Assembly (NCBI RefSeq): GCF_003334785.1
Contig: NZ_QOWV01000014.1
DNA length: 64,000 nt
Direction: 5' to 3' (one strand)
Origin: Escherichia coli
GTDB taxonomy: Bacteria; Pseudomonadota; Gammaproteobacteria; Enterobacterales; Enterobacteriaceae
Shown: in pieces, positions 13,000-20,823 of the stretch
Layout of the letters: every line of letters begins with the position of its first letter
Numbering within the stretch: position 1 is the first letter of the stretch
Made by a program: the position numbers and the translations under genes
The notes under the pieces: generated by a model
Seen by the model: only the letters and a program-made list of their open reading frames with translations
Told to the model about the DNA's origin: nothing
Database searches by the model: none

Positions 13000-14670
13000 A
13001 TGGATAATGCAGAACTCGCCATTGGTATCGATCTCGGTACTACCAATAGTTTAATTGCCGTCTGGAAAGACGGTGCCGCGCAATTAATTCCAAATAAGTT
13101 CGGTGAATATTTAACACCATCCATAATTAGCATGGATGAAAATAATCATATTTTAGTCGGAAAACCGGCTGTATCACGGCGTACTTCGCATCCGGATAAA
13201 ACGGCAGCGTTATTTAAACGTGCAATGGGCAGTAATACCAACTGGCGGTTAGGCAGCGACACATTTAACGCGCCAGAACTGTCCTCTTTGGTATTACGCT
13301 CATTAAAAGAAGATGCCGAAGAATTTCTGCAACGTCCGATTAAAGATGTGGTGATCTCCGTTCCGGCTTATTTCAGCGATGAACAACGCAAGCATACCCG
13401 TTTAGCAGCGGAGTTAGCCGGGTTAAATGCGGTACGCTTAATTAATGAACCCACAGCAGCTGCGATGGCGTATGGCCTGCATACCCAACAAAATACCCGT
13501 TCGCTGGTGTTTGATCTCGGTGGCGGCACGTTTGACGTTACGGTGCTTGAGTACGCCACGCCGGTGATTGAAGTTCACGCCTCCGCTGGCGACAACTTTC
13601 TTGGTGGCGAAGATTTTACCCATATGCTGGTCGATGAGGTTTTAAAACGCGCGGATGTCGCCAGGACCACGCTTAACGAGAGTGAACTGGCAGCCTTGTA
13701 CGCCTGTGTGGAAGCGGCAAAATGTAGCAATCAATCGCCATTGCACATTCGCTGGCAGTATCAGGAAGAAACGCGGGAATGCGAATTTTACGAGAACGAA
13801 CTGGAAGATTTGTGGTTGCCGCTGCTCAATCGCTTGCGAGTGCCGATTGAACAGGCGTTGCGCGATGCGCGTCTGAAGCCGAGTCAAATCGACAGTCTGG
13901 TGCTGGTTGGCGGCGCGTCACAAATGCCGCTGGTGCAGCGAATCGCCGTGCGTCTGTTTGGCAAATTACCGTATCAAAGTTACGATCCGAGCACCATTGT
14001 CGCGCTGGGCGCAGCAATCCAGGCCGCCTGCCGCTTACGCAGTGAAGATATTGAAGAGGTAATCCTCACTGATATTTGCCCTTACTCGTTGGGCGTTGAA
14101 GTTAACCGCCAGGGCGTTTCCGGCATTTTCTCGCCGATTATTGAACGAAACACCACTGTGCCCGTGTCGCGTGTAGAAACTTATTCAACCATGCACCCGG
14201 AACAGGATTCAATTACGGTTAACGTCTATCAGGGAGAAAACCACAAAGTTAAAAACAACATTCTGGTGGAATCCTTCGATGTGCCGTTGAAGAAAACCGG
14301 GGCTTATCAGTCGATTGATATTCGCTTTAGTTATGATATCAACGGGTTGCTTGAAGTTGACGTGCTTCTGGAAGACGGCAGCGTTAAGTCCAGAGTGATT
14401 AACCACAGCCCGGTAACATTGAGCGCGCAGCAGATTGAAGAGAGTCGGACGCGGTTATCCGCATTGAAAATTTATCCGCGCGATATGCTCATCAATCGCA
14501 CCTTTAAAGCCAAACTGGAAGAGTTGTGGGCGCGGGCGCTGGGTGACGAGCGAGAAGAGATCGGCCGGGTGATCACCGATTTTGATGCGGCGTTGCAGTC
14601 AAACGATATGGCCCGCGTGGATGAAGTTCGGCGGCGGGCGAGCGATTATTTAGCCATTGAGATCCCATAA
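13000..14670 (+). CDS. hscC: Hsp70-family chaperone Hsc62
   Basis: 556-aa ORF with Hsp70 ATPase signatures (IGIDLGTTNS, DLGGGTFD); shorter than DnaK. Confidence 0.9.
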   Translation: MDNAELAIGIDLGTTNSLIAVWKDGAAQLIPNKFGEYLTPSIISMDENNHILVGKPAVSRRTSHPDKTAALFKRAMGSNTNWRLGSDTFNAPELSSLVLRSLKEDAEEFLQRPIKDVVISVPAYFSDEQRKHTRLAAELAGLNAVRLINEPTAAAMAYGLHTQQNTRSLVFDLGGGTFDVTVLEYATPVIEVHASAGDNFLGGEDFTHMLVDEVLKRADVARTTLNESELAALYACVEAAKCSNQSPLHIRWQYQEETRECEFYENELEDLWLPLLNRLRVPIEQALRDARLKPSQIDSLVLVGGASQMPLVQRIAVRLFGKLPYQSYDPSTIVALGAAIQAACRLRSEDIEEVILTDICPYSLGVEVNRQGVSGIFSPIIERNTTVPVSRVETYSTMHPEQDSITVNVYQGENHKVKNNILVESFDVPLKKTGAYQSIDIRFSYDINGLLEVDVLLEDGSVKSRVINHSPVTLSAQQIEESRTRLSALKIYPRDMLINRTFKAKLEELWARALGDEREEIGRVITDFDAALQSNDMARVDEVRRRASDYLAIEIP

Positions 14671-14729: not shown

Positions 14730-16181
14730 TCAGCTAAACAACATCGCGATTTTGCCGAGAGCATAACCTATCACCAGCACCGTTAAACTGATTTTGATAA
14801 TGCTGGTAATGCTCTGTGGTTTTTCACCCTCATCATTTTTTTCTTCATGATTTTCAGGTGTTGGCTCATCGACATCTTCATCCTCCGGCTCGAGTTTCAC
14901 TTTCGTCAAAAGCATCCGGGTGACAATGGCCTCTAATGGATGAGCATCTCCGCCTTCCAGCCTTGTATTAAGACGGGCCAGCATCTCTTGTTTCGGAAAC
15001 GCTTCAAGTACTACCTGTTCCGCTACCCGATACAAATCCAGGAACGGTGAATCTTGCTCTGTCTCGCTACCGACTCTCGATTTCCACCACGCCCATGCTT
15101 TGCGCTTGAAGAATAACGACTCAATAAACGATTGACCTAACGGCGATAATTTTCCGCTATGTAAAATCTCCGCCCATAACAGCCGCGTCCGGGCGCTCTC
15201 ACCAGGAACATATTTCAGCGGTTGACCTTGCGCATCTACCATGCTCCGCGCTTCGATAACCATCACTAATAACGCGAAATAATCCGGGCAATGACGCTTG
15301 CTCCACTGCAACAACAAATTATCAGCTTGTGTAGATGGGTAACTTTCCCAGTACGCGCAGAGATCGGCAAGCAGGCTTTCCCCCTCGCCGCAGTACAAAC
15401 GTTGTGCACACAAGTAATACCGGGCATCTTCGCTTTCTGGTTCTTCCGTTTGCCACTGTTGAGCGACAGGAATGAGTTCCGCCATACCTGTTTGCACCGA
15501 GCTGTACCAGCGCAACAGTTTGCGATGTAACTTTGCATCATCAGGAATTAACCACGGACCTTCCATCGCCAAAAACGCAGTGACATAGTCAGGATGGTAA
15601 CGGCAGCAACGTTCCAGCGCGAAGTAATACTCAACAGTCTGGTTCTGCAACGCAATGGGATATTCCAGAAGGCTAAGGAAATCGAAACAATCACCAGCCT
15701 GAATGGCCTCAAGAAAAGCCTCCCTTTCTTCCTCATCCATTCCTTCGCTGTCATTAAATGAATGCCAGTTCAAACGCTCTGCCAGCAAAGAAGCACAATT
15801 TAATGAAAGATATCGCGCTTCTATGGCGATTGCACACAGCGGCCAGCGTAATTGATCGACATCCTCCATGTTCCAGGTATTTAATTGCTGAATAAATTTC
15901 TGCCAGGCGGAAGGCTGAAAACGATCACTTTCTGAATCCAGTAATGTCCTGAATGCACGTAGTATTTCATGTTCAGCGGCAGCATCTTTTTCTTCATCAT
16001 CTGCTTCCTCGACAGGATTTACCGCCAGTCGCAGGGCCTCTTCATAGGCCTGGCGTAATGCTTTAAACCCTTGCGGATCGGTTTCGGGATGACACAACGG
16101 TAAGCGAGCAAGATAAGCCTGGCGGATAATGTCTATTTGCGTCGTGCTTTCAATTTCGAGGATTTGCCAACATGTTTTCAT
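14730..16181 (-). CDS. djlC: Tail-anchored J-domain co-chaperone (Hsc56)
   Basis: 483-aa ORF with an N-terminal J-like domain (ILEIE...[21 protein letters not shown]) and a hydrophobic C-terminal segment; paralog of the djlB ORF. Confidence 0.85.
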
Positions 16182-16885
16182 AGGTCGCTCACATCCTTAA
16201 GCGTTACCGGGCATTCAGACTGGACAGTTAATGGCTGCCAGGGAAGCGTGGCATAGAAACGATCGCTTCCCGCTGCCAGCTCTTCGAACATACGACTCCC
16301 GGCGCTATCGTATTTGTACAGGGTTAGCGCCTCGCGTAGCGAAGTGTTGTCTTCGCACTGAGAAGATTGCCAGTAGAGACGTCCTAACGAATAGGCGGAA
16401 AAATAGTGCATCCAGCTGTGATAGTAATGGTGAGCTCGTACATAGACGCGCGATTGCAGCCATAAACTCTCTTCTTCCGTCAGCCACTTGTTGAGCACAC
16501 CGACCCGTGACAGAAACCCCATTCGAACATAATCCCAGGCTTTGATTCCCCCTTCCCCACAGCACATAGCGGTTTGGGCAACGAATTGGGTATAAATCAA
16601 CCCTCTCTCCGAGCCACCAGCAATTAATGCTTTCCACTCTTCAGGGGAAGAGCGATGCCATGTCAGATATAAGCCAGCTAAATCATTGGCATGACCATCA
16701 TCAGTCATCTGATAAATAGTCTGAATTAAATCATCACGATTATTTATTCCCCAGGATGATGAGAGCTCGAATTCTTTTATCCCAGTATACATTTTTGGCG
16801 AGTCATGCGCGGGTTTGCAACCCTGATTAAGTATTTCCATGGGCGCAGAAAGCGCAAAAAGAAGATATTGTTCTTCCTTATTCAT
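16178..16885 (-). CDS. ybeU: DUF1266-family protein
   Basis: 235-aa ORF, paralogous to the ybeR ORF with a shared [20 protein letters not shown] block; ATGA overlap with djlC. Confidence 0.8.
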
Positions 16886-16986
16886 TTGTTAATAATCCCT
16901 TAAGTGCATTAACTGACTACTTTTTTATTATTGATGAGTATAAACTTGACGCTTTCAAAATAAAAAGAAAATCGAAGCATTCACAC

Positions 16987-17541
16987 ATGAATAAAAAATT
17001 AATGTATATATTCGCAATTTTTATAGTTGCAGCAATTACCTGTATTAGCCAACCCAAGAAAACGACGTTGCGTGATAAAGCCATGGTGAATTATGCCTTT
17101 GATTATTTAAGCTCACCGGGCAGTCTTCCATTCACCACGGCAGCCACGGAGCTTTCCGCGATTCATGGTCACTCAACGTCGCAATATCGCCTTGGAGAAT
17201 TTTATCTTCATGGTAGCGACGGTAAACCACTGGATTATACACAGGCGAGATACTGGTATGAGCAATCAGCGGAACAGGAAAATCCACGCGCGCAAAGTAA
17301 ACTGGGGTGGATCTACCTCAAAGGTCTGGGGGTCAAACCCGACACCCGTAAAGCAATTCTCTGGTATAAGGAAGCAGCTGAACAAGGGTATGCTCATGCT
17401 CAATATACTTTAGGTTTGATCTACAGAAATGGCTCAGGTATTAATGTTAACCATTATGAATCTCAAAAATGGTTAAAACTGGCCGCCAAACAACATTACA
17501 AAAATGCGGAAAGATTACTTGCCGGGCTTCCCGCACATTAA
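16987..17541 (+). CDS. ybeT: Sel1-repeat protein with N-terminal signal peptide
   Basis: 184-aa ORF with a hydrophobic N-terminus and Sel1-like repeats ([16 protein letters not shown]..., [15 protein letters not shown]...). Confidence 0.8.
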
Positions 17542-17550
17542 CGTCGACTG

Positions 17551-18978
17551 TCACCCGAACAGATGGAGTATTTTCCCTATCAAACCAGCAAAGATAAAAA
17601 TATAGAAAATAATTTTAATGATGCCCAGACAGCCTGGCCCACCATCGTCAACGGGCATTGGCTGCGGTTGCGGCTCCGGTTCAACAGTTTGCTTCTCGGT
17701 AAAATTCGCCGCCTGAATTAATAATCGACGAATAATTAATGCTTCCAGTGGACAACGATTTTCTGCATCAAGGCGGCTCACAATCGGCATTAATGATTCT
17801 TCTGTAGGTTGGCAGGCCTGCACTAATTGTTTGGCAACTAGATATAATGGCCATAAGGTATGTTCTGTATCACGCGTGAGTGAGATCCGCGGCTTACGTC
17901 CTTTGTGCAAAACCATCTCGACCAGTGAACGCCCCAGCGCAGAGAGTTTTTCATCGCTGAGTATTTCGTATAAATGAAAACGCGTACGGGCGCTGTCGCC
18001 GGGGACATAAAGTAGCGGTTTTCCCTGATCGTTAACCAGATCACGCGCTTCAATCATCATCACCAGTAATGGGTAATAATCGACCCGATGCTGACGGCAC
18101 CATTGCAACATTAAAGCATCCGCCTGGGTGGAGGGATACTCGCGCCAGTAGTCACAAAGTTCTGCCAACAGGCTTTCGCCTTCTCCACAATAGACGCGTT
18201 GCGCGTATTCATAATAAGGCGCATCTTCATTATCAGGTTCAGTTTCCCGCCATGACTGGGCGTAATCCAGAAGTTCGGGGATATCCAGGCGACCTGCGCT
18301 ATACCAGCGGAGTAAATTTCTGTGCAGTTTTGCATCATCGGGGATAATCACTGCGCGATGTTGCGCTAAATACAATGTCAGCCATTGTGGATGCGATGAC
18401 CAAATCCGAGCGAACATTTGGTAAAAATCGATGGTGTCATTTTGCACGGCAACGGGCAGATGCAGAATGGTCTGGAAGTTAAAAACATTCCCCTTCGCAA
18501 TGGCATATAAAAAGGATTCCAGTTCTTCTTCGTCTATTTCCCCGGTATTTTCCTCCTGTAACCACCGCAATCTTTCTGCTAATAACACCACGCACTCGAA
18601 GGATAAATGGGCAGTGTTCATGGCGATTGTGCACAGCGACCAGCGTAATTCATCAATCTCCTCCATCGAGCAATAATTTAATTGCTGAATGAATCGCTGC
18701 CAGGCGGAGGGCAGAAAACGTTCACTATCAGAGGCAAGTAACGCACGAAAGGCGAGCAGAATTTCATGTTCTGCTACCTCATATTCTTCTGGTTGCCAAA
18801 CAGATTTAGCAGGCGACTGCGCAATCCGTAGCGCCTCCTCATACGCCTGACGAAGTTGTTTAAAACCCTGCGGATCGGTTTCTGGATGAAAGGACGGTAA
18901 CAGCGCCAGATAAGCGCGGCGGATAATATCGACGTCAGTCGTTTCCTCTATATCGAGGATCTTCCAGCAATTTTTCAT
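17551..18978 (-). CDS. djlB: Tail-anchored J-domain co-chaperone
   Basis: 475-aa ORF paralogous to djlC ([38 protein letters not shown]...), with a C-terminal hydrophobic segment. Confidence 0.85.
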
Positions 18979-19682
18979 AGGTCGCTCATATCCTTAAGCG
19001 TTTCCGGGCATGCAGAATAGTAAGCCAATGGTTGCCAGGACAAGGTAGGGTAATACGCATCATCACTGGCAAATAATTGATAAAACATATCATTGCCGGA
19101 ATCGTCGTATTCTTTACGCGCTAAGAATTCGCGTAATAAAGGCAGATGATCATCTTCGGGAGACTGCCAATATTGCCGACCAAAGGTATAACCGGCAAAG
19201 TATTGCCGCCAGTTACTATAATAACGTAGAGCCCGTAGATGAATGCGCGACTGGATCCATAGACTTTCTTCTTCGCTCAACCAGTTATTAAGTACGCCCA
19301 TTCGGCTTAAAAAACCCATCCGGACATAATCCCAGGCTTTGATTCCCCCTTCGCCACAGCATTCGGCGGTGCTGGCGACAAATTGCGCATAAGCCTGACC
19401 TTGCTCATTTAGTTCAGCAAGATAGTCACGCCATTCACATGGCGAATAACGAAACCAGCGGTGATAAAACCCTGCCAACCGAGCGGCATGACCGTTATCG
19501 ATCATTCGGTGAATTGTGCGCAGCAGGTCATCACGGTCATCAATTCCCCATGAGGAAGAAAGGTCAAAAAAGCATGTACCTAAATACATTTTGGGTGATG
19601 AATGCGAAGGTAAACAGCATTCATTGCGTATTTCCATCGGAGTGGAAAGTGCAAACAATATTTTTTGCGACTCCATGTCCAT
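18975..19682 (-). CDS. ybeR: DUF1266-family protein
   Basis: 235-aa ORF paralogous to ybeU; ATGA overlap with djlB. Confidence 0.8.
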
Positions 19683-19845
19683 ATAATTTATCCTTAAATA
19701 TTCATTAAATGAATATTAGCCGCATTGCGAGGCTCGTTTATTTATACTTTTCTGACGCGACATAATACGCATAAAATAAGGCTTACGCAAAAATGGAACA
19801 CATAAAAATATAATATGTTTTATCTGCAACCATAAGGAAATGATA

Positions 19846-20823
19846 ATGATTTTCACGTCAAGTTGCTGCGATAATTTATCAATAGATGAGATTATCGAAC
19901 GTGCTGAAAAAGGCGATTGCGAGGCTCAATATATTGTTGGGTTTTATTATAATCGCGATAGCGCAATTGATTCTCCGGACGACGAAAAAGCCTTTTACTG
20001 GCTGAAGCTGGCCGCTGAGCAAGGTCATTGTGAAGCACAGTATTCCTTAGGGCAAAAGTATACCGAGGATAAAAGCCGTCATAAAGATAATGAGCAAGCC
20101 ATCTTCTGGCTGAAAAAAGCTGCCCTACAAGGCCATACTTTCGCTTCCAACGCCCTTGGCTGGACACTGGATCGTGGAGAAGCCCCCAATTATAAAGAAG
20201 CGGTTGTCTGGTATCAGATAGCCGCGGAGAGCGGAATGTCTTATGCGCAAAATAATCTTGGGTGGATGTACAGAAATGGCAACGGAGTCGCAAAAGACTA
20301 TGCGCTGGCATTTTTCTGGTACAAACAAGCTGCATTACAAGGCCATAGTGACGCGCAAAACAATCTGGCCGATCTTTATGAAGACGGAAAAGGCGTTGCT
20401 CAAAACAAGACACTCGCCGCATTCTGGTATTTGAAAAGCGCACAGCAGGGTAATCGGCACGCCCAGTTTCAAATTGCATGGGATTATAACGCTGGCGAAG
20501 GGGTGGACCAGGACTATAAGCAAGCGATGTACTGGTATCTGAAGGCTGCCGCTCAGGGGAGCGTCGGCGCTTACGTCAACATCGGTTATATGTATAAACA
20601 CGGACAAGGCGTTGAGAAAGATTATCAGGCTGCCTTTGAATGGTTTACGAAAGCCGCTGAATGCAATGACGCCACTGCCTGGTATAACCTGGCCATTATG
20701 TATCACTACGGAGAAGGAAGACCTGTCGATCTCCGACAGGCTCTCGACCTGTATCGTAAAGTTCAGTCATCCGGAACCAGAGATGTCAGTCAGGAAATTC
20801 GTGAGACTGAAGATTTACTGTAG
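19846..20823 (+). CDS. ybeQ: Sel1-repeat protein, apparently cytoplasmic
   Basis: About seven Sel1-like repeats (AQY.LG..Y..G.GV..D); no N-terminal signal peptide. The start is uncertain (ATG at 19840 or 19846). Confidence 0.8.
   Translation: MIFTSSCCDNLSIDEIIERAEKGDCEAQYIVGFYYNRDSAIDSPDDEKAFYWLKLAAEQGHCEAQYSLGQKYTEDKSRHKDNEQAIFWLKKAALQGHTFASNALGWTLDRGEAPNYKEAVVWYQIAAESGMSYAQNNLGWMYRNGNGVAKDYALAFFWYKQAALQGHSDAQNNLADLYEDGKGVAQNKTLAAFWYLKSAQQGNRHAQFQIAWDYNAGEGVDQDYKQAMYWYLKAAAQGSVGAYVNIGYMYKHGQGVEKDYQAAFEWFTKAAECNDATAWYNLAIMYHYGEGRPVDLRQALDLYRKVQSSGTRDVSQEIRETEDLL

What the first reader, a model, noticed from the sequence alone, without database searches (positions are those of the whole stretch)
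14730..18978. Both J-proteins carry HPE in place of the canonical HPD motif and end in a hydrophobic tail anchor
Both J-like domains read ...HPETDPQGF where DnaJ has HPD, and the Asp of HPD is normally needed to stimulate Hsp70 ATPase. Both proteins end in a hydrophobic segment of about 22 residues ([18 protein letters not shown] and [20 protein letters not shown]), which would tether them to the inner membrane. A variant motif fits a private co-evolved interface with HscC and not with DnaK.
Basis: partly seen in the sequence, partly recalled or inferred. Interest (0 to 1): 0.45.

Follow-up and report, generated by a model that had tools for sequence, protein, structure and literature searches.

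The report
E. coli DjlC/DjlB: known HPE co-chaperones
The two genes are E. coli djlC and djlB, membrane-anchored helper proteins of the minor Hsp70 chaperone HscC; their unusual HPE (instead of HPD) motif and their C-terminal membrane anchor are both real, but both are already described in the literature.

Summary
The window is the E. coli chromosome. The two ORFs are djlC (14730-16181, -) and djlB (17551-18978, -), next to hscC.

- **HPE motif:** both proteins read HPE at residues 31-33. A 36-sequence family profile matches only solved J-domains (27 of 27 hits, best E 1e-7), with HPE on the HPD column. An AlphaFold2 model (pLDDT 86) puts HPE in the loop between helices II and III.
- **Tail anchor:** each protein has one strongly hydrophobic segment, at the extreme C-terminus.
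- **Prior literature:** HPE in DjlB/DjlC is stated in PMC10410713 and PMC13254874. Tail-anchoring and the exclusive stimulation of HscC by DjlC are stated in PMC8215388.
- **Not independent:** the proteins are paralogues (49% identity), so "both" reflects one ancestral change.

Added here: HPE is near-invariant across a wide family (99 of 100 close and 42 of 51 distant relatives, none with HPD). Six of six distant relatives lie beside an HscC-type Hsp70. The DnaK residues that contact the HPD Asp (R167, Q378) are unchanged in HscC. Specificity more likely comes from other interface changes. A DUF1266 gene overlaps each J-protein gene by 4 bp and is essentially unstudied.

The parts
13000..14670 (+). 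hscC, the specialised Hsp70 partner (556 aa)
   Evidence: RefSeq annotation at 100% identity. About 32-34% identical to DnaK, depending on the alignment. R167, Q378, L391 and P419 equivalents are retained; DnaK loop 208-211 is deleted; D477->S and D481->N.
14730..16181 (-). djlC (ybeV), a tail-anchored class C J-domain co-chaperone (483 aa)
   Evidence: ORF. RefSeq 'co-chaperone DjlC'. AF2 model with pLDDT 86.2.
16017..16181 (-). DjlC J-domain (residues 1-55)
   Evidence: Pfam DnaJ residues 4-47, E 0.036. Family profile against PDB hits 27 of 27 J-domains. AF2 helices at 4-8, 16-29 and 36-54.
16083..16091 (-). DjlC HPE codons (CAT CCC GAA, residues 31-33)
   Evidence: Aligned to the HPD column.
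14901..16007 (-). DjlC central all-alpha domain (residues 59-427; Pfam PF27158 DjlB_C_2nd)
   Evidence: Precomputed Pfam annotation on homologues. AF2 predicts all helices. No significant PDB fold match: best E 0.09, TM <= 0.24.
14733..14810 (-). DjlC C-terminal transmembrane tail anchor (residues 458-483, [26 protein letters not shown])
   Evidence: Kyte-Doolittle 19-residue maximum 1.99. AF2 helix 458-482 follows a disordered linker at 433-455. Membrane insertion reported by Peschke 2018, as cited in PMC8215388.
16178..16885 (-). ybeU, a DUF1266 protein (235 aa); its stop overlaps the djlC start by 4 bp (ATGA)
   Evidence: The same 4-bp overlap occurs in distant loci L003, L004, L005 and L009.
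16987..17541 (+). ybeT, a Sel1/TPR repeat protein (184 aa) with a hydrophobic N-terminus
17551..18978 (-). djlB (ybeS), a paralogous tail-anchored J-domain protein (475 aa)
   Evidence: ORF. RefSeq 'J domain-containing protein' djlB. 49% identical to DjlC over the full length.
18814..18978 (-). DjlB J-domain (residues 1-55)
   Evidence: Pfam DnaJ residues 4-47, E 0.0017. phmmer against PDB J-domains.
18880..18888 (-). DjlB HPE codons (residues 31-33)
17554..17634 (-). DjlB C-terminal transmembrane tail anchor (residues 449-475, [27 protein letters not shown])
   Evidence: Kyte-Doolittle 19-residue maximum 2.39; sequence.
18975..19682 (-). ybeR, a DUF1266 protein (235 aa); 4-bp ATGA overlap with djlB
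   Evidence: 59% identical to YbeU.
19840..20823 (+). ybeQ, a Sel1 repeat protein (327 aa)
   Evidence: Repeats are 32-36% identical to YbeT.

Best explanation
These are the E. coli genes djlC and djlB. They are paralogous class C J-domain co-chaperones dedicated to the specialised Hsp70 HscC, which is encoded next door.

Each protein has four parts:
- an N-terminal J-domain whose helix II-III loop reads HPE instead of HPD;
- an all-alpha domain of about 370 residues (Pfam DjlB_C_2nd), presumably for client or partner binding;
- a disordered acidic or proline-rich linker;
- a single C-terminal transmembrane helix.

The tail anchors the protein in the inner membrane with the rest in the cytoplasm. 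There the J-domain recruits HscC and triggers its ATP hydrolysis.

The Glu keeps the carboxylate that the Asp of HPD offers to the conserved Arg and Gln of the Hsp70 (R146 and Q341 in HscC; R167 and Q378 in DnaK). HPE is therefore a functional, lineage-fixed variant of HPD, not a defect.

Orthogonality to DnaK most likely comes from the interface as a whole. HscC-type Hsp70s lack the acidic loop 208-211, carry D477->S/T and D481->N, and have an altered linker. DjlB and DjlC have a much less basic helix II.

Shown here: gene identity, motif register, fold, hydrophobic tail, family-wide conservation and gene adjacency. Taken from the literature: ATPase stimulation, membrane insertion and the Cd2+ phenotype. 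Inferred: the role of the Glu carboxylate and the source of specificity.
For: - **Identity:** 100% match to annotated hscC, djlC, ybeU, ybeT, djlB, ybeR and ybeQ.
- **J-domain and register:**
- **AF2:** HPE lies in the loop 30-35 between helices 16-29 and 36-54. The linker 433-455 is disordered and the terminal helix spans 458-482.
- **Hydropathy:**
- **HPE conservation:** 99 of 100 close homologues and 42 of 51 distant J-bearing relatives; H31, P32 and E33 are invariant in alignments A1 and A2.
- **Gene adjacency:** an HscC-type Hsp70 is adjacent in 6 of 6 distant loci.
- **HPD-contact residues:** R167, Q378, L391 and P419 are invariant in HscC-type proteins, while loop 208-211 is deleted and D477 and D481 are replaced.
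- **Helix II charge:** K+R count is 6 in DnaJ against 2 in DjlC and 2 in DjlB.
- **Literature:** HPE in DjlB/C (PMC10410713; PMC13254874). DjlC alone stimulates HscC; tail-anchoring; Cd2+ sensitivity (PMC8215388).
Against: - Single-sequence Pfam DnaJ scores fall below the usual significance level (E 0.036 and 0.0017). The J-domain call rests on the family profile and the model.
- No direct evidence here, or in the papers I could read, that DjlB (as opposed to DjlC) stimulates HscC. The review only assumes it.
- The primary papers (Kluck 2002, Peschke 2018, Barriot 2020) could not be opened, so the experimental claims are second-hand.
- The near-absolute fixation of Glu, with no HPD among about 150 relatives, is stronger than expected if D and E were freely interchangeable.
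Confidence: 0.88

Rival explanations
1. The Glu itself determines specificity. HPE is required for productive docking on HscC-type Hsp70s and prevents productive docking on DnaK. It would have co-evolved with a change in the Hsp70 Arg167 network, the consistent candidate being D481->N (N448 in HscC).
For: - No HPD in 100 close or 51 distant J-bearing relatives, and E33 is invariant in alignments A1 and A2.
- Every HPE protein examined is next to an HscC-type Hsp70.
- All of those Hsp70s carry D481->N. In DnaK, D481 pairs with R167/I168, the same Arg that binds the HPD Asp.
Against: - The direct partners of the Asp (R167, Q378) are unchanged.
- Larger interface differences could explain specificity on their own: the loop 208-211 deletion, D477->S/T, and the less basic helix II.
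- Family members with NPE or RPD still sit beside HscC-type Hsp70s, so the triad is not rigidly coupled to the partner.
- No swap experiment was found in the searchable literature.
Confidence: 0.25
2. The HPE J-like domains are degenerate and inactive (type IV J-like), and DjlB/DjlC act independently of any Hsp70.
For: Weak single-sequence Pfam DnaJ scores. Replacements in HPD usually abolish function (PMC13254874).
Against: - DjlC is reported to stimulate HscC ATPase (PMC8215388).
- His, Pro and the carboxylate are invariant, and the helix III FK/LR/AYE signature is conserved.
- An Hsp70 gene is adjacent in every locus examined.
Confidence: 0.03
3. The C-terminal hydrophobic stretch is not a membrane anchor. 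It could be, for example, a buried or oligomerisation helix, and the proteins would be soluble.
For: Both tails contain two lysines within the hydrophobic stretch. Some distant relatives have no hydrophobic segment at all.
Against: - Kyte-Doolittle maxima of 1.99 and 2.39, restricted to the last 26-30 residues.
- A 25-residue helix isolated from the body of the protein by a disordered linker.
- Retained in 92 of 100 homologues.
- Membrane insertion of DjlC reported by Peschke 2018, as cited.
- The ~890-aa relatives have 1-3 C-terminal hydrophobic segments instead.
Confidence: 0.03

Closest known systems
E. coli DjlC (YbeV, Hsc56) and DjlB (YbeS), co-chaperones of HscC (Hsc62)
   Same: They are the same genes. 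The DNA is 100% identical to annotated djlC and djlB in several RefSeq E. coli genomes. The HPE motif, the tail anchor and the HscC specificity are as described in the literature.
   Different: Nothing differs.
DnaJ/CbpA/DjlA J-domains (Pfam PF00226) working with DnaK
   Same: The helix II - loop - helix III architecture is shared. So are the invariant His-Pro, the carboxylate at the third position, and the conserved F-K and AYE in helix III.
   Different: - Glu replaces Asp.
- Helix II carries 2 basic residues rather than 6.
- The loop after HPE is 3-6 residues shorter (alignments).
- The partner is HscC, not DnaK.
DjlA (E. coli membrane-anchored J-protein)
   Same: It is an inner-membrane-tethered class C J-protein that brings an Hsp70 to the membrane (own knowledge; listed as a class C JDP in PMC8215388).
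   Different: DjlA has an N-terminal TM segment and a C-terminal J-domain with canonical HPD, and it works with DnaK (own knowledge, not tested here). DjlB and DjlC have the reverse topology (N-terminal J-domain, C-terminal tail anchor), HPE, and HscC as partner.
HscB-HscA (Hsc20-Hsc66) dedicated Hsp70/J pair
   Same: It is another private Hsp70/J-protein pair in E. coli, with the genes clustered.
   Different: HscB is soluble, has a dedicated client (IscU), and works in Fe-S cluster assembly (own knowledge). The client of HscC with DjlB/DjlC is unknown.

Membership tests
J-domain (Pfam PF00226 DnaJ) | Sequence match to the J-domain profile | tested here: met
   Single-sequence matches are weak: Pfam E 0.036 (DjlC) and 0.0017 (DjlB), covering model positions 2-51 of 63. 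A 36-member family profile hits only J-domains in the PDB (27 of 27, best E 9.7e-8).
J-domain (Pfam PF00226 DnaJ) | Literal His-Pro-Asp tripeptide in the loop between helices II and III | tested here: not met
   The aligned column reads His-Pro-Glu in both proteins. The field nevertheless counts HPE proteins as J-domain proteins and notes HPE as the one tolerated replacement (PMC10410713, PMC13254874).
J-domain (Pfam PF00226 DnaJ) | Helix II - loop - helix III hairpin fold with the triad in the loop | tested here: met
   AF2 model: helices 16-29 and 36-54, loop 30-35 containing HPE at 31-33; pLDDT 86-93 across residues 1-50.
J-domain (Pfam PF00226 DnaJ) | Stimulates ATP hydrolysis by a partner Hsp70 | not testable with these tools
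   Reported for DjlC with HscC (Kluck 2002, as summarised in PMC8215388). Only assumed for DjlB.
DjlB/DjlC family (Pfam PF27158 DjlB_C_2nd) | Central DjlB_C_2nd domain following the J-domain | tested here: met
   Precomputed PF27158 on clusters 97-100% identical to the query (P0001, P0002) and on the DjlC clusters (P0017). The domain name appears. The Pfam copy used by profile_search lacks this family.
DjlB/DjlC family (Pfam PF27158 DjlB_C_2nd) | Encoded next to an HscC-type Hsp70 | tested here: met
   hscC lies at 13000-14670, 59 bp from the djlC stop. The same adjacency holds in 6 of 6 distant loci.
Tail-anchored inner-membrane protein | A single hydrophobic helix within about 30 residues of the C-terminus, and no signal peptide or other TM segment | tested here: met
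   Kyte-Doolittle values above 1.6 occur only at the C-terminus. AF2 predicts a terminal helix at 458-482.
Tail-anchored inner-membrane protein | Experimentally inserted in the membrane with the N-terminus in the cytoplasm | not testable with these tools
   Reported for DjlC (Peschke 2018, cited in PMC8215388).
HscC subfamily of Hsp70 (the neighbouring gene) | Hsp70 of about 560 aa with the NBD loop deletions and without DnaK-type J-contact acidic residues | tested here: met
   556 aa. DnaK segments of about 23 residues (about 78-100) and 208-211 are absent, and D477->S and D481->N. This agrees with the description in PMC8215388.

The most novel reading that the evidence does not exclude
The D-to-E change may not be neutral history. 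It could be one half of a compensatory pair with the HscC-specific D481->N substitution in the Arg167 clamp, making HPE a true orthogonality switch between Hsp70 systems. Separately, the DUF1266 protein, whose gene overlaps each djl gene by 4 bp and is conserved with it from Proteobacteria to an apparent Firmicute locus, could be an unrecognised obligatory third component of the HscC machine.
Probability: 0.2. Interest if true: 0.45.

Novelty: already known. Interest (0 to 1): 0.12.

Why it matters
As stated, the finding adds nothing new. HPE in DjlB/DjlC, their tail anchors and their exclusive partnership with HscC are in reviews and a large-scale J-domain survey. What remains open is the biology. 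The client of HscC is unknown, no HPE/HPD swap experiment was found, and the DUF1266 partner is essentially unstudied. If Glu-versus-Asp proved to be an orthogonality switch, it would give a simple rule for insulating parallel Hsp70 systems within one cell.

Tried and rejected
- **Displaced HPD:** DjlC has a literal HPD at residues 196-198. I rejected it as the motif because it lies in the central helical domain, is HPQ in DjlB, and no J-domain profile aligns there.
- **Anti-phage defence system:** rejected. PADLOC gave no hit for HscC, DjlB, DjlC, YbeU or YbeR, and only sub-threshold repeat noise for the Sel1 proteins.
- **NCBIfam:** no model matches DjlB, DjlC or YbeR. YbeU gave only a far-sub-threshold hit.
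- **Fold of the central domain:** Foldseek against the PDB returned nothing with E <= 0.001, only vague TPR or solenoid resemblance (TM <= 0.24).
- **YbeU (DUF1266) against PDB sequences:** no meaningful hit.
- **Primary papers:** Kluck 2002, Peschke 2018 and Barriot 2020 are not held in the library.
- **Search for 'Hsc56/YbeV/YbeS':** returned mostly unrelated acronyms.
- **Covariation between the triad variant and the Hsp70 contact residues:** none found. N170->S occurs in three Hsp70s whose partners carry HPE, NPE and RPD respectively.
Full report
**What the region is.** The window is E. coli chromosome. An 8.5-kb query around the finding is 100% identical to several RefSeq genomes, including strains WG5 and C. 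The annotation there reads gltL, rihA, hscC, djlC, ybeU, ybeT, djlB, ybeR, ybeQ, ybeL, leuS. In window coordinates:

| Gene | Coordinates | Strand |
|---|---|---|
| hscC | 13000-14670 | + |
| djlC | 14730-16181 | - |
| ybeU | 16178-16885 | - |
| ybeT | 16987-17541 | + |
| djlB | 17551-18978 | - |
| ybeR | 18975-19682 | - |
| ybeQ | 19840-20823 | + |

These ORFs are listed. The finding's span therefore covers the two J-protein genes plus ybeU and ybeT.

**Checking the HPE observation.** Both proteins read HPETDPQGF, with HPE at residues 31-33. The codons lie at 16083-16091 and 18880-18888.

- Single-sequence Pfam scans give only weak DnaJ hits (E 0.036 and 0.0017, residues 4-47).
- phmmer of the DjlB N-terminus against PDB sequences returns mostly J-domains, the best being dnj-12 at E 0.008, with weaker hits to E. 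coli DnaJ 1BQZ and 5NRO chain B. In all four alignments printed, HPE sits on HPD.
- A profile built from 36 diverse family N-termini (alignment A1) hits 27 PDB sequences at E <= 0.001. All 27 are J-domains, the best at 9.7e-8, in the same register.
- An AlphaFold2 model of DjlC, built from a 47-sequence alignment (mean pLDDT 86.2, pTM 0.70), has helices at 16-29 and 36-54. HPE lies in the loop between them.

The refutation condition "profile alignment places the HPD equivalent elsewhere" is therefore not met. DjlC also has a literal HPD at 196-198. It lies in the central helical domain, and DjlB has HPQ at that position, so it is coincidental.

**Checking the tail observation.** Both quoted hydrophobic strings are present. 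In each protein, the only 19-residue windows with Kyte-Doolittle hydropathy above 1.6 are at the extreme C-terminus. The maxima are 1.99 for DjlC and 2.39 for DjlB, against 1.36 and 1.53 elsewhere. The model shows a 25-residue terminal helix (458-482) separated from the body of the protein by a disordered linker at 433-455.

**The two cases are not independent.** DjlC and DjlB are 49% identical over their full length. YbeU and YbeR are 59% identical, and YbeT and YbeQ share Sel1 repeats. The locus is a tandem duplication of a three-gene module, so "both carry HPE and a tail" reflects one ancestral state.

**What is already published.**
- PMC10410713 (PNAS 2023) found an HPE triad in 2,921 J-domains, about 1% of all J-domain proteins. 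It names DjlB and DjlC as examples.
- PMC8215388 (2021) covers most of the rest:
[quoted passage not shown] - HscC lacks a loop containing the J-contact residue D211.
  - HscC co-evolved with specialised J-proteins.
  - hscC and djlB djlC mutants are Cd2+-sensitive.
- A 2026 preprint treats HscC and DjlC as one of three co-evolving Hsp70/J classes.

Observation and interpretation are thus both correct and both known.

**Family-wide conservation.** Among 100 full-length close homologues (Escherichia, Salmonella, Citrobacter, Enterobacter; down to 38% identity), 99 have HPE at residues 31-33 and one has HLE. 92 keep a strongly hydrophobic C-terminus.

An exhaustive search of 1.84 billion representatives found 1,598 relatives at E <= 0.001. 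Of the 52 listed that are at least 300 aa long, one lacks the J-domain. The other 51 divide as follows:

| Triad | Count |
|---|---|
| HPE | 42 |
| NPE | 5 |
| RPD | 2 |
| KPE | 1 |
| HPPE (one-residue insertion) | 1 |
| HPD | 0 |

The family signature is HPE-x-DP-x-GF-x-x-LR-x-AYE. Architectures vary. Some members are about 470 aa with a tail anchor. Others are about 890 aa with 1-3 C-terminal hydrophobic segments, and one of these carries DUF805. A third group of about 950-1200 aa is fused to TPR repeats and has no hydrophobic segment.

**Pairing with HscC-type Hsp70s.** All six distant members whose contigs I examined lie directly beside a 559-567-aa Hsp70. This includes an NPE variant and an RPD variant. 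The five complete neighbouring Hsp70s are 45-60% identical to HscC and 34-38% identical to DnaK.

**Is the Glu itself the private interface?** According to PMC8215388, four HPD contacts are seen in the DnaK-J complex:
- D35 hydrogen-bonds R167 and Q378.
- H33 contacts the backbone of L391.
- P34 contacts P419.
- K48 bridges to D477.

In HscC and in all five HscC-type neighbours, R167, Q378, L391 and P419 are unchanged.

What changes, consistently, is the following:
- DnaK residues 208-211 (DEVD) are deleted.
- D477 becomes S or T.
- D481 becomes N.
- The linker reads ILTD instead of LLLD.

On the J side, the 16 residues before the triad carry 6 Lys/Arg in DnaJ but 2 in DjlC and 2 in DjlB. The simplest reading is that Glu still supplies the carboxylate to the conserved Arg and Gln, and that specificity comes from the electrostatic surroundings.

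The complete absence of HPD in the family, together with the universal D481->N, leaves room for a real compensatory role for the Glu. In DnaK, D481 pairs with R167. I found no swap experiment in the searchable literature.

**Other components.** ybeU and ybeR encode DUF1266 proteins. Their stop codons overlap the djlC and djlB start codons by 4 bp (CCTATGAAAA in both). The same 4-bp overlap between a DUF1266 gene and the J-protein gene recurs in L003, L004 and L005 (twice). In L009 the order is reversed: Hsp70, then J, then DUF1266. DUF1266 appears in only one paper of the searchable library, has no PDB relative by sequence, and co-occurs with "Hsp70" in no paper. The central DjlB_C_2nd domain is all-alpha and has no significant structural neighbour in the PDB. 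No gene of the locus matches a PADLOC defence model.

**Distribution within E. coli.** djlC is present at >=80% coverage in 4,372 of 5,426 complete genomes, and djlB in 3,709. About 1,030 genomes have no match to either gene. The module is therefore dispensable and variable within the species.

**Verdict.** The residual interest lies in three untested points: whether Glu is required, what DUF1266 does, and what the client of HscC is.

Noticed in passing
window 16178-16181 and 18975-18978; also L003 8001-8004, L004 6677-6680, L005 12195-12198 and 14341-14344, L009 7362-7365: The DUF1266 genes (ybeU, ybeR) overlap the J-protein genes by 4 bp (ATGA), which suggests translational coupling. This pairing recurs in distant loci, including an apparent Firmicute locus where the order is Hsp70, J, DUF1266. 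DUF1266 is mentioned in only one paper of the searchable library and has no PDB relative by sequence. It may be an unrecognised component of the HscC system.
   Followed up: partly
window 16178-20823: The locus is a tandem duplication of a three-gene module: DUF1266, tail-anchored J-protein, and a divergently transcribed Sel1-repeat protein. Identities are DjlC/DjlB 49%, YbeU/YbeR 59%, and YbeT/YbeQ repeats about 36%. A Salmonella-like locus (L005) carries three J-protein genes at the same ybeL-leuS position.
   Followed up: partly
P0230, P0246, P0255, P0256, P0258 (NPE); P0216, P0259 (RPD); P0245 (KPE); loci L007 and L009: Some family members lack the His of the triad (NPE, RPD, KPE). The two I checked (P0246 and P0216) are still encoded directly beside an HscC-type Hsp70. 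In canonical systems, loss of the His abolishes ATPase stimulation, so it is unclear how these work.
   Followed up: partly
P0134, P0136, P0139 and other ~890-aa relatives; P0224, P0246 and other ~950-1200-aa relatives: Distant relatives replace the single tail anchor with 1-3 C-terminal hydrophobic segments (one has DUF805). Others have none and are fused to TPR repeats. Membrane tethering is therefore common in the HPE J-protein family but not universal.
   Followed up: partly
window 14730-18978 compared with 5,426 complete E. coli genomes: The module is accessory within E. coli. djlC is present at >=80% coverage in 4,372 genomes and djlB in 3,709, and about 1,030 genomes have no match to either gene. 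One strain (hit H17) has an IS1 element inside djlB.
   Followed up: partly
window 16987-17541 (ybeT) compared with 19840-20823 (ybeQ): YbeT starts with a hydrophobic, signal-peptide-like segment ([21 protein letters not shown]). YbeQ does not. The two Sel1-repeat paralogues may therefore sit in different compartments.
   Followed up: no
window 15590-15598 (DjlC residues 196-198): DjlC contains a literal HPD tripeptide in its central domain (RYHPDYV). DjlB has HPQ at that position. It is not part of a J-domain.
   Followed up: yes
window 14901-16007 (DjlC residues 59-427): The central DjlB_C_2nd domain is confidently predicted as all-alpha. It has no significant structural match in the PDB (best Foldseek E 0.09, TM <= 0.24), and its function is unknown.
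   Followed up: partly
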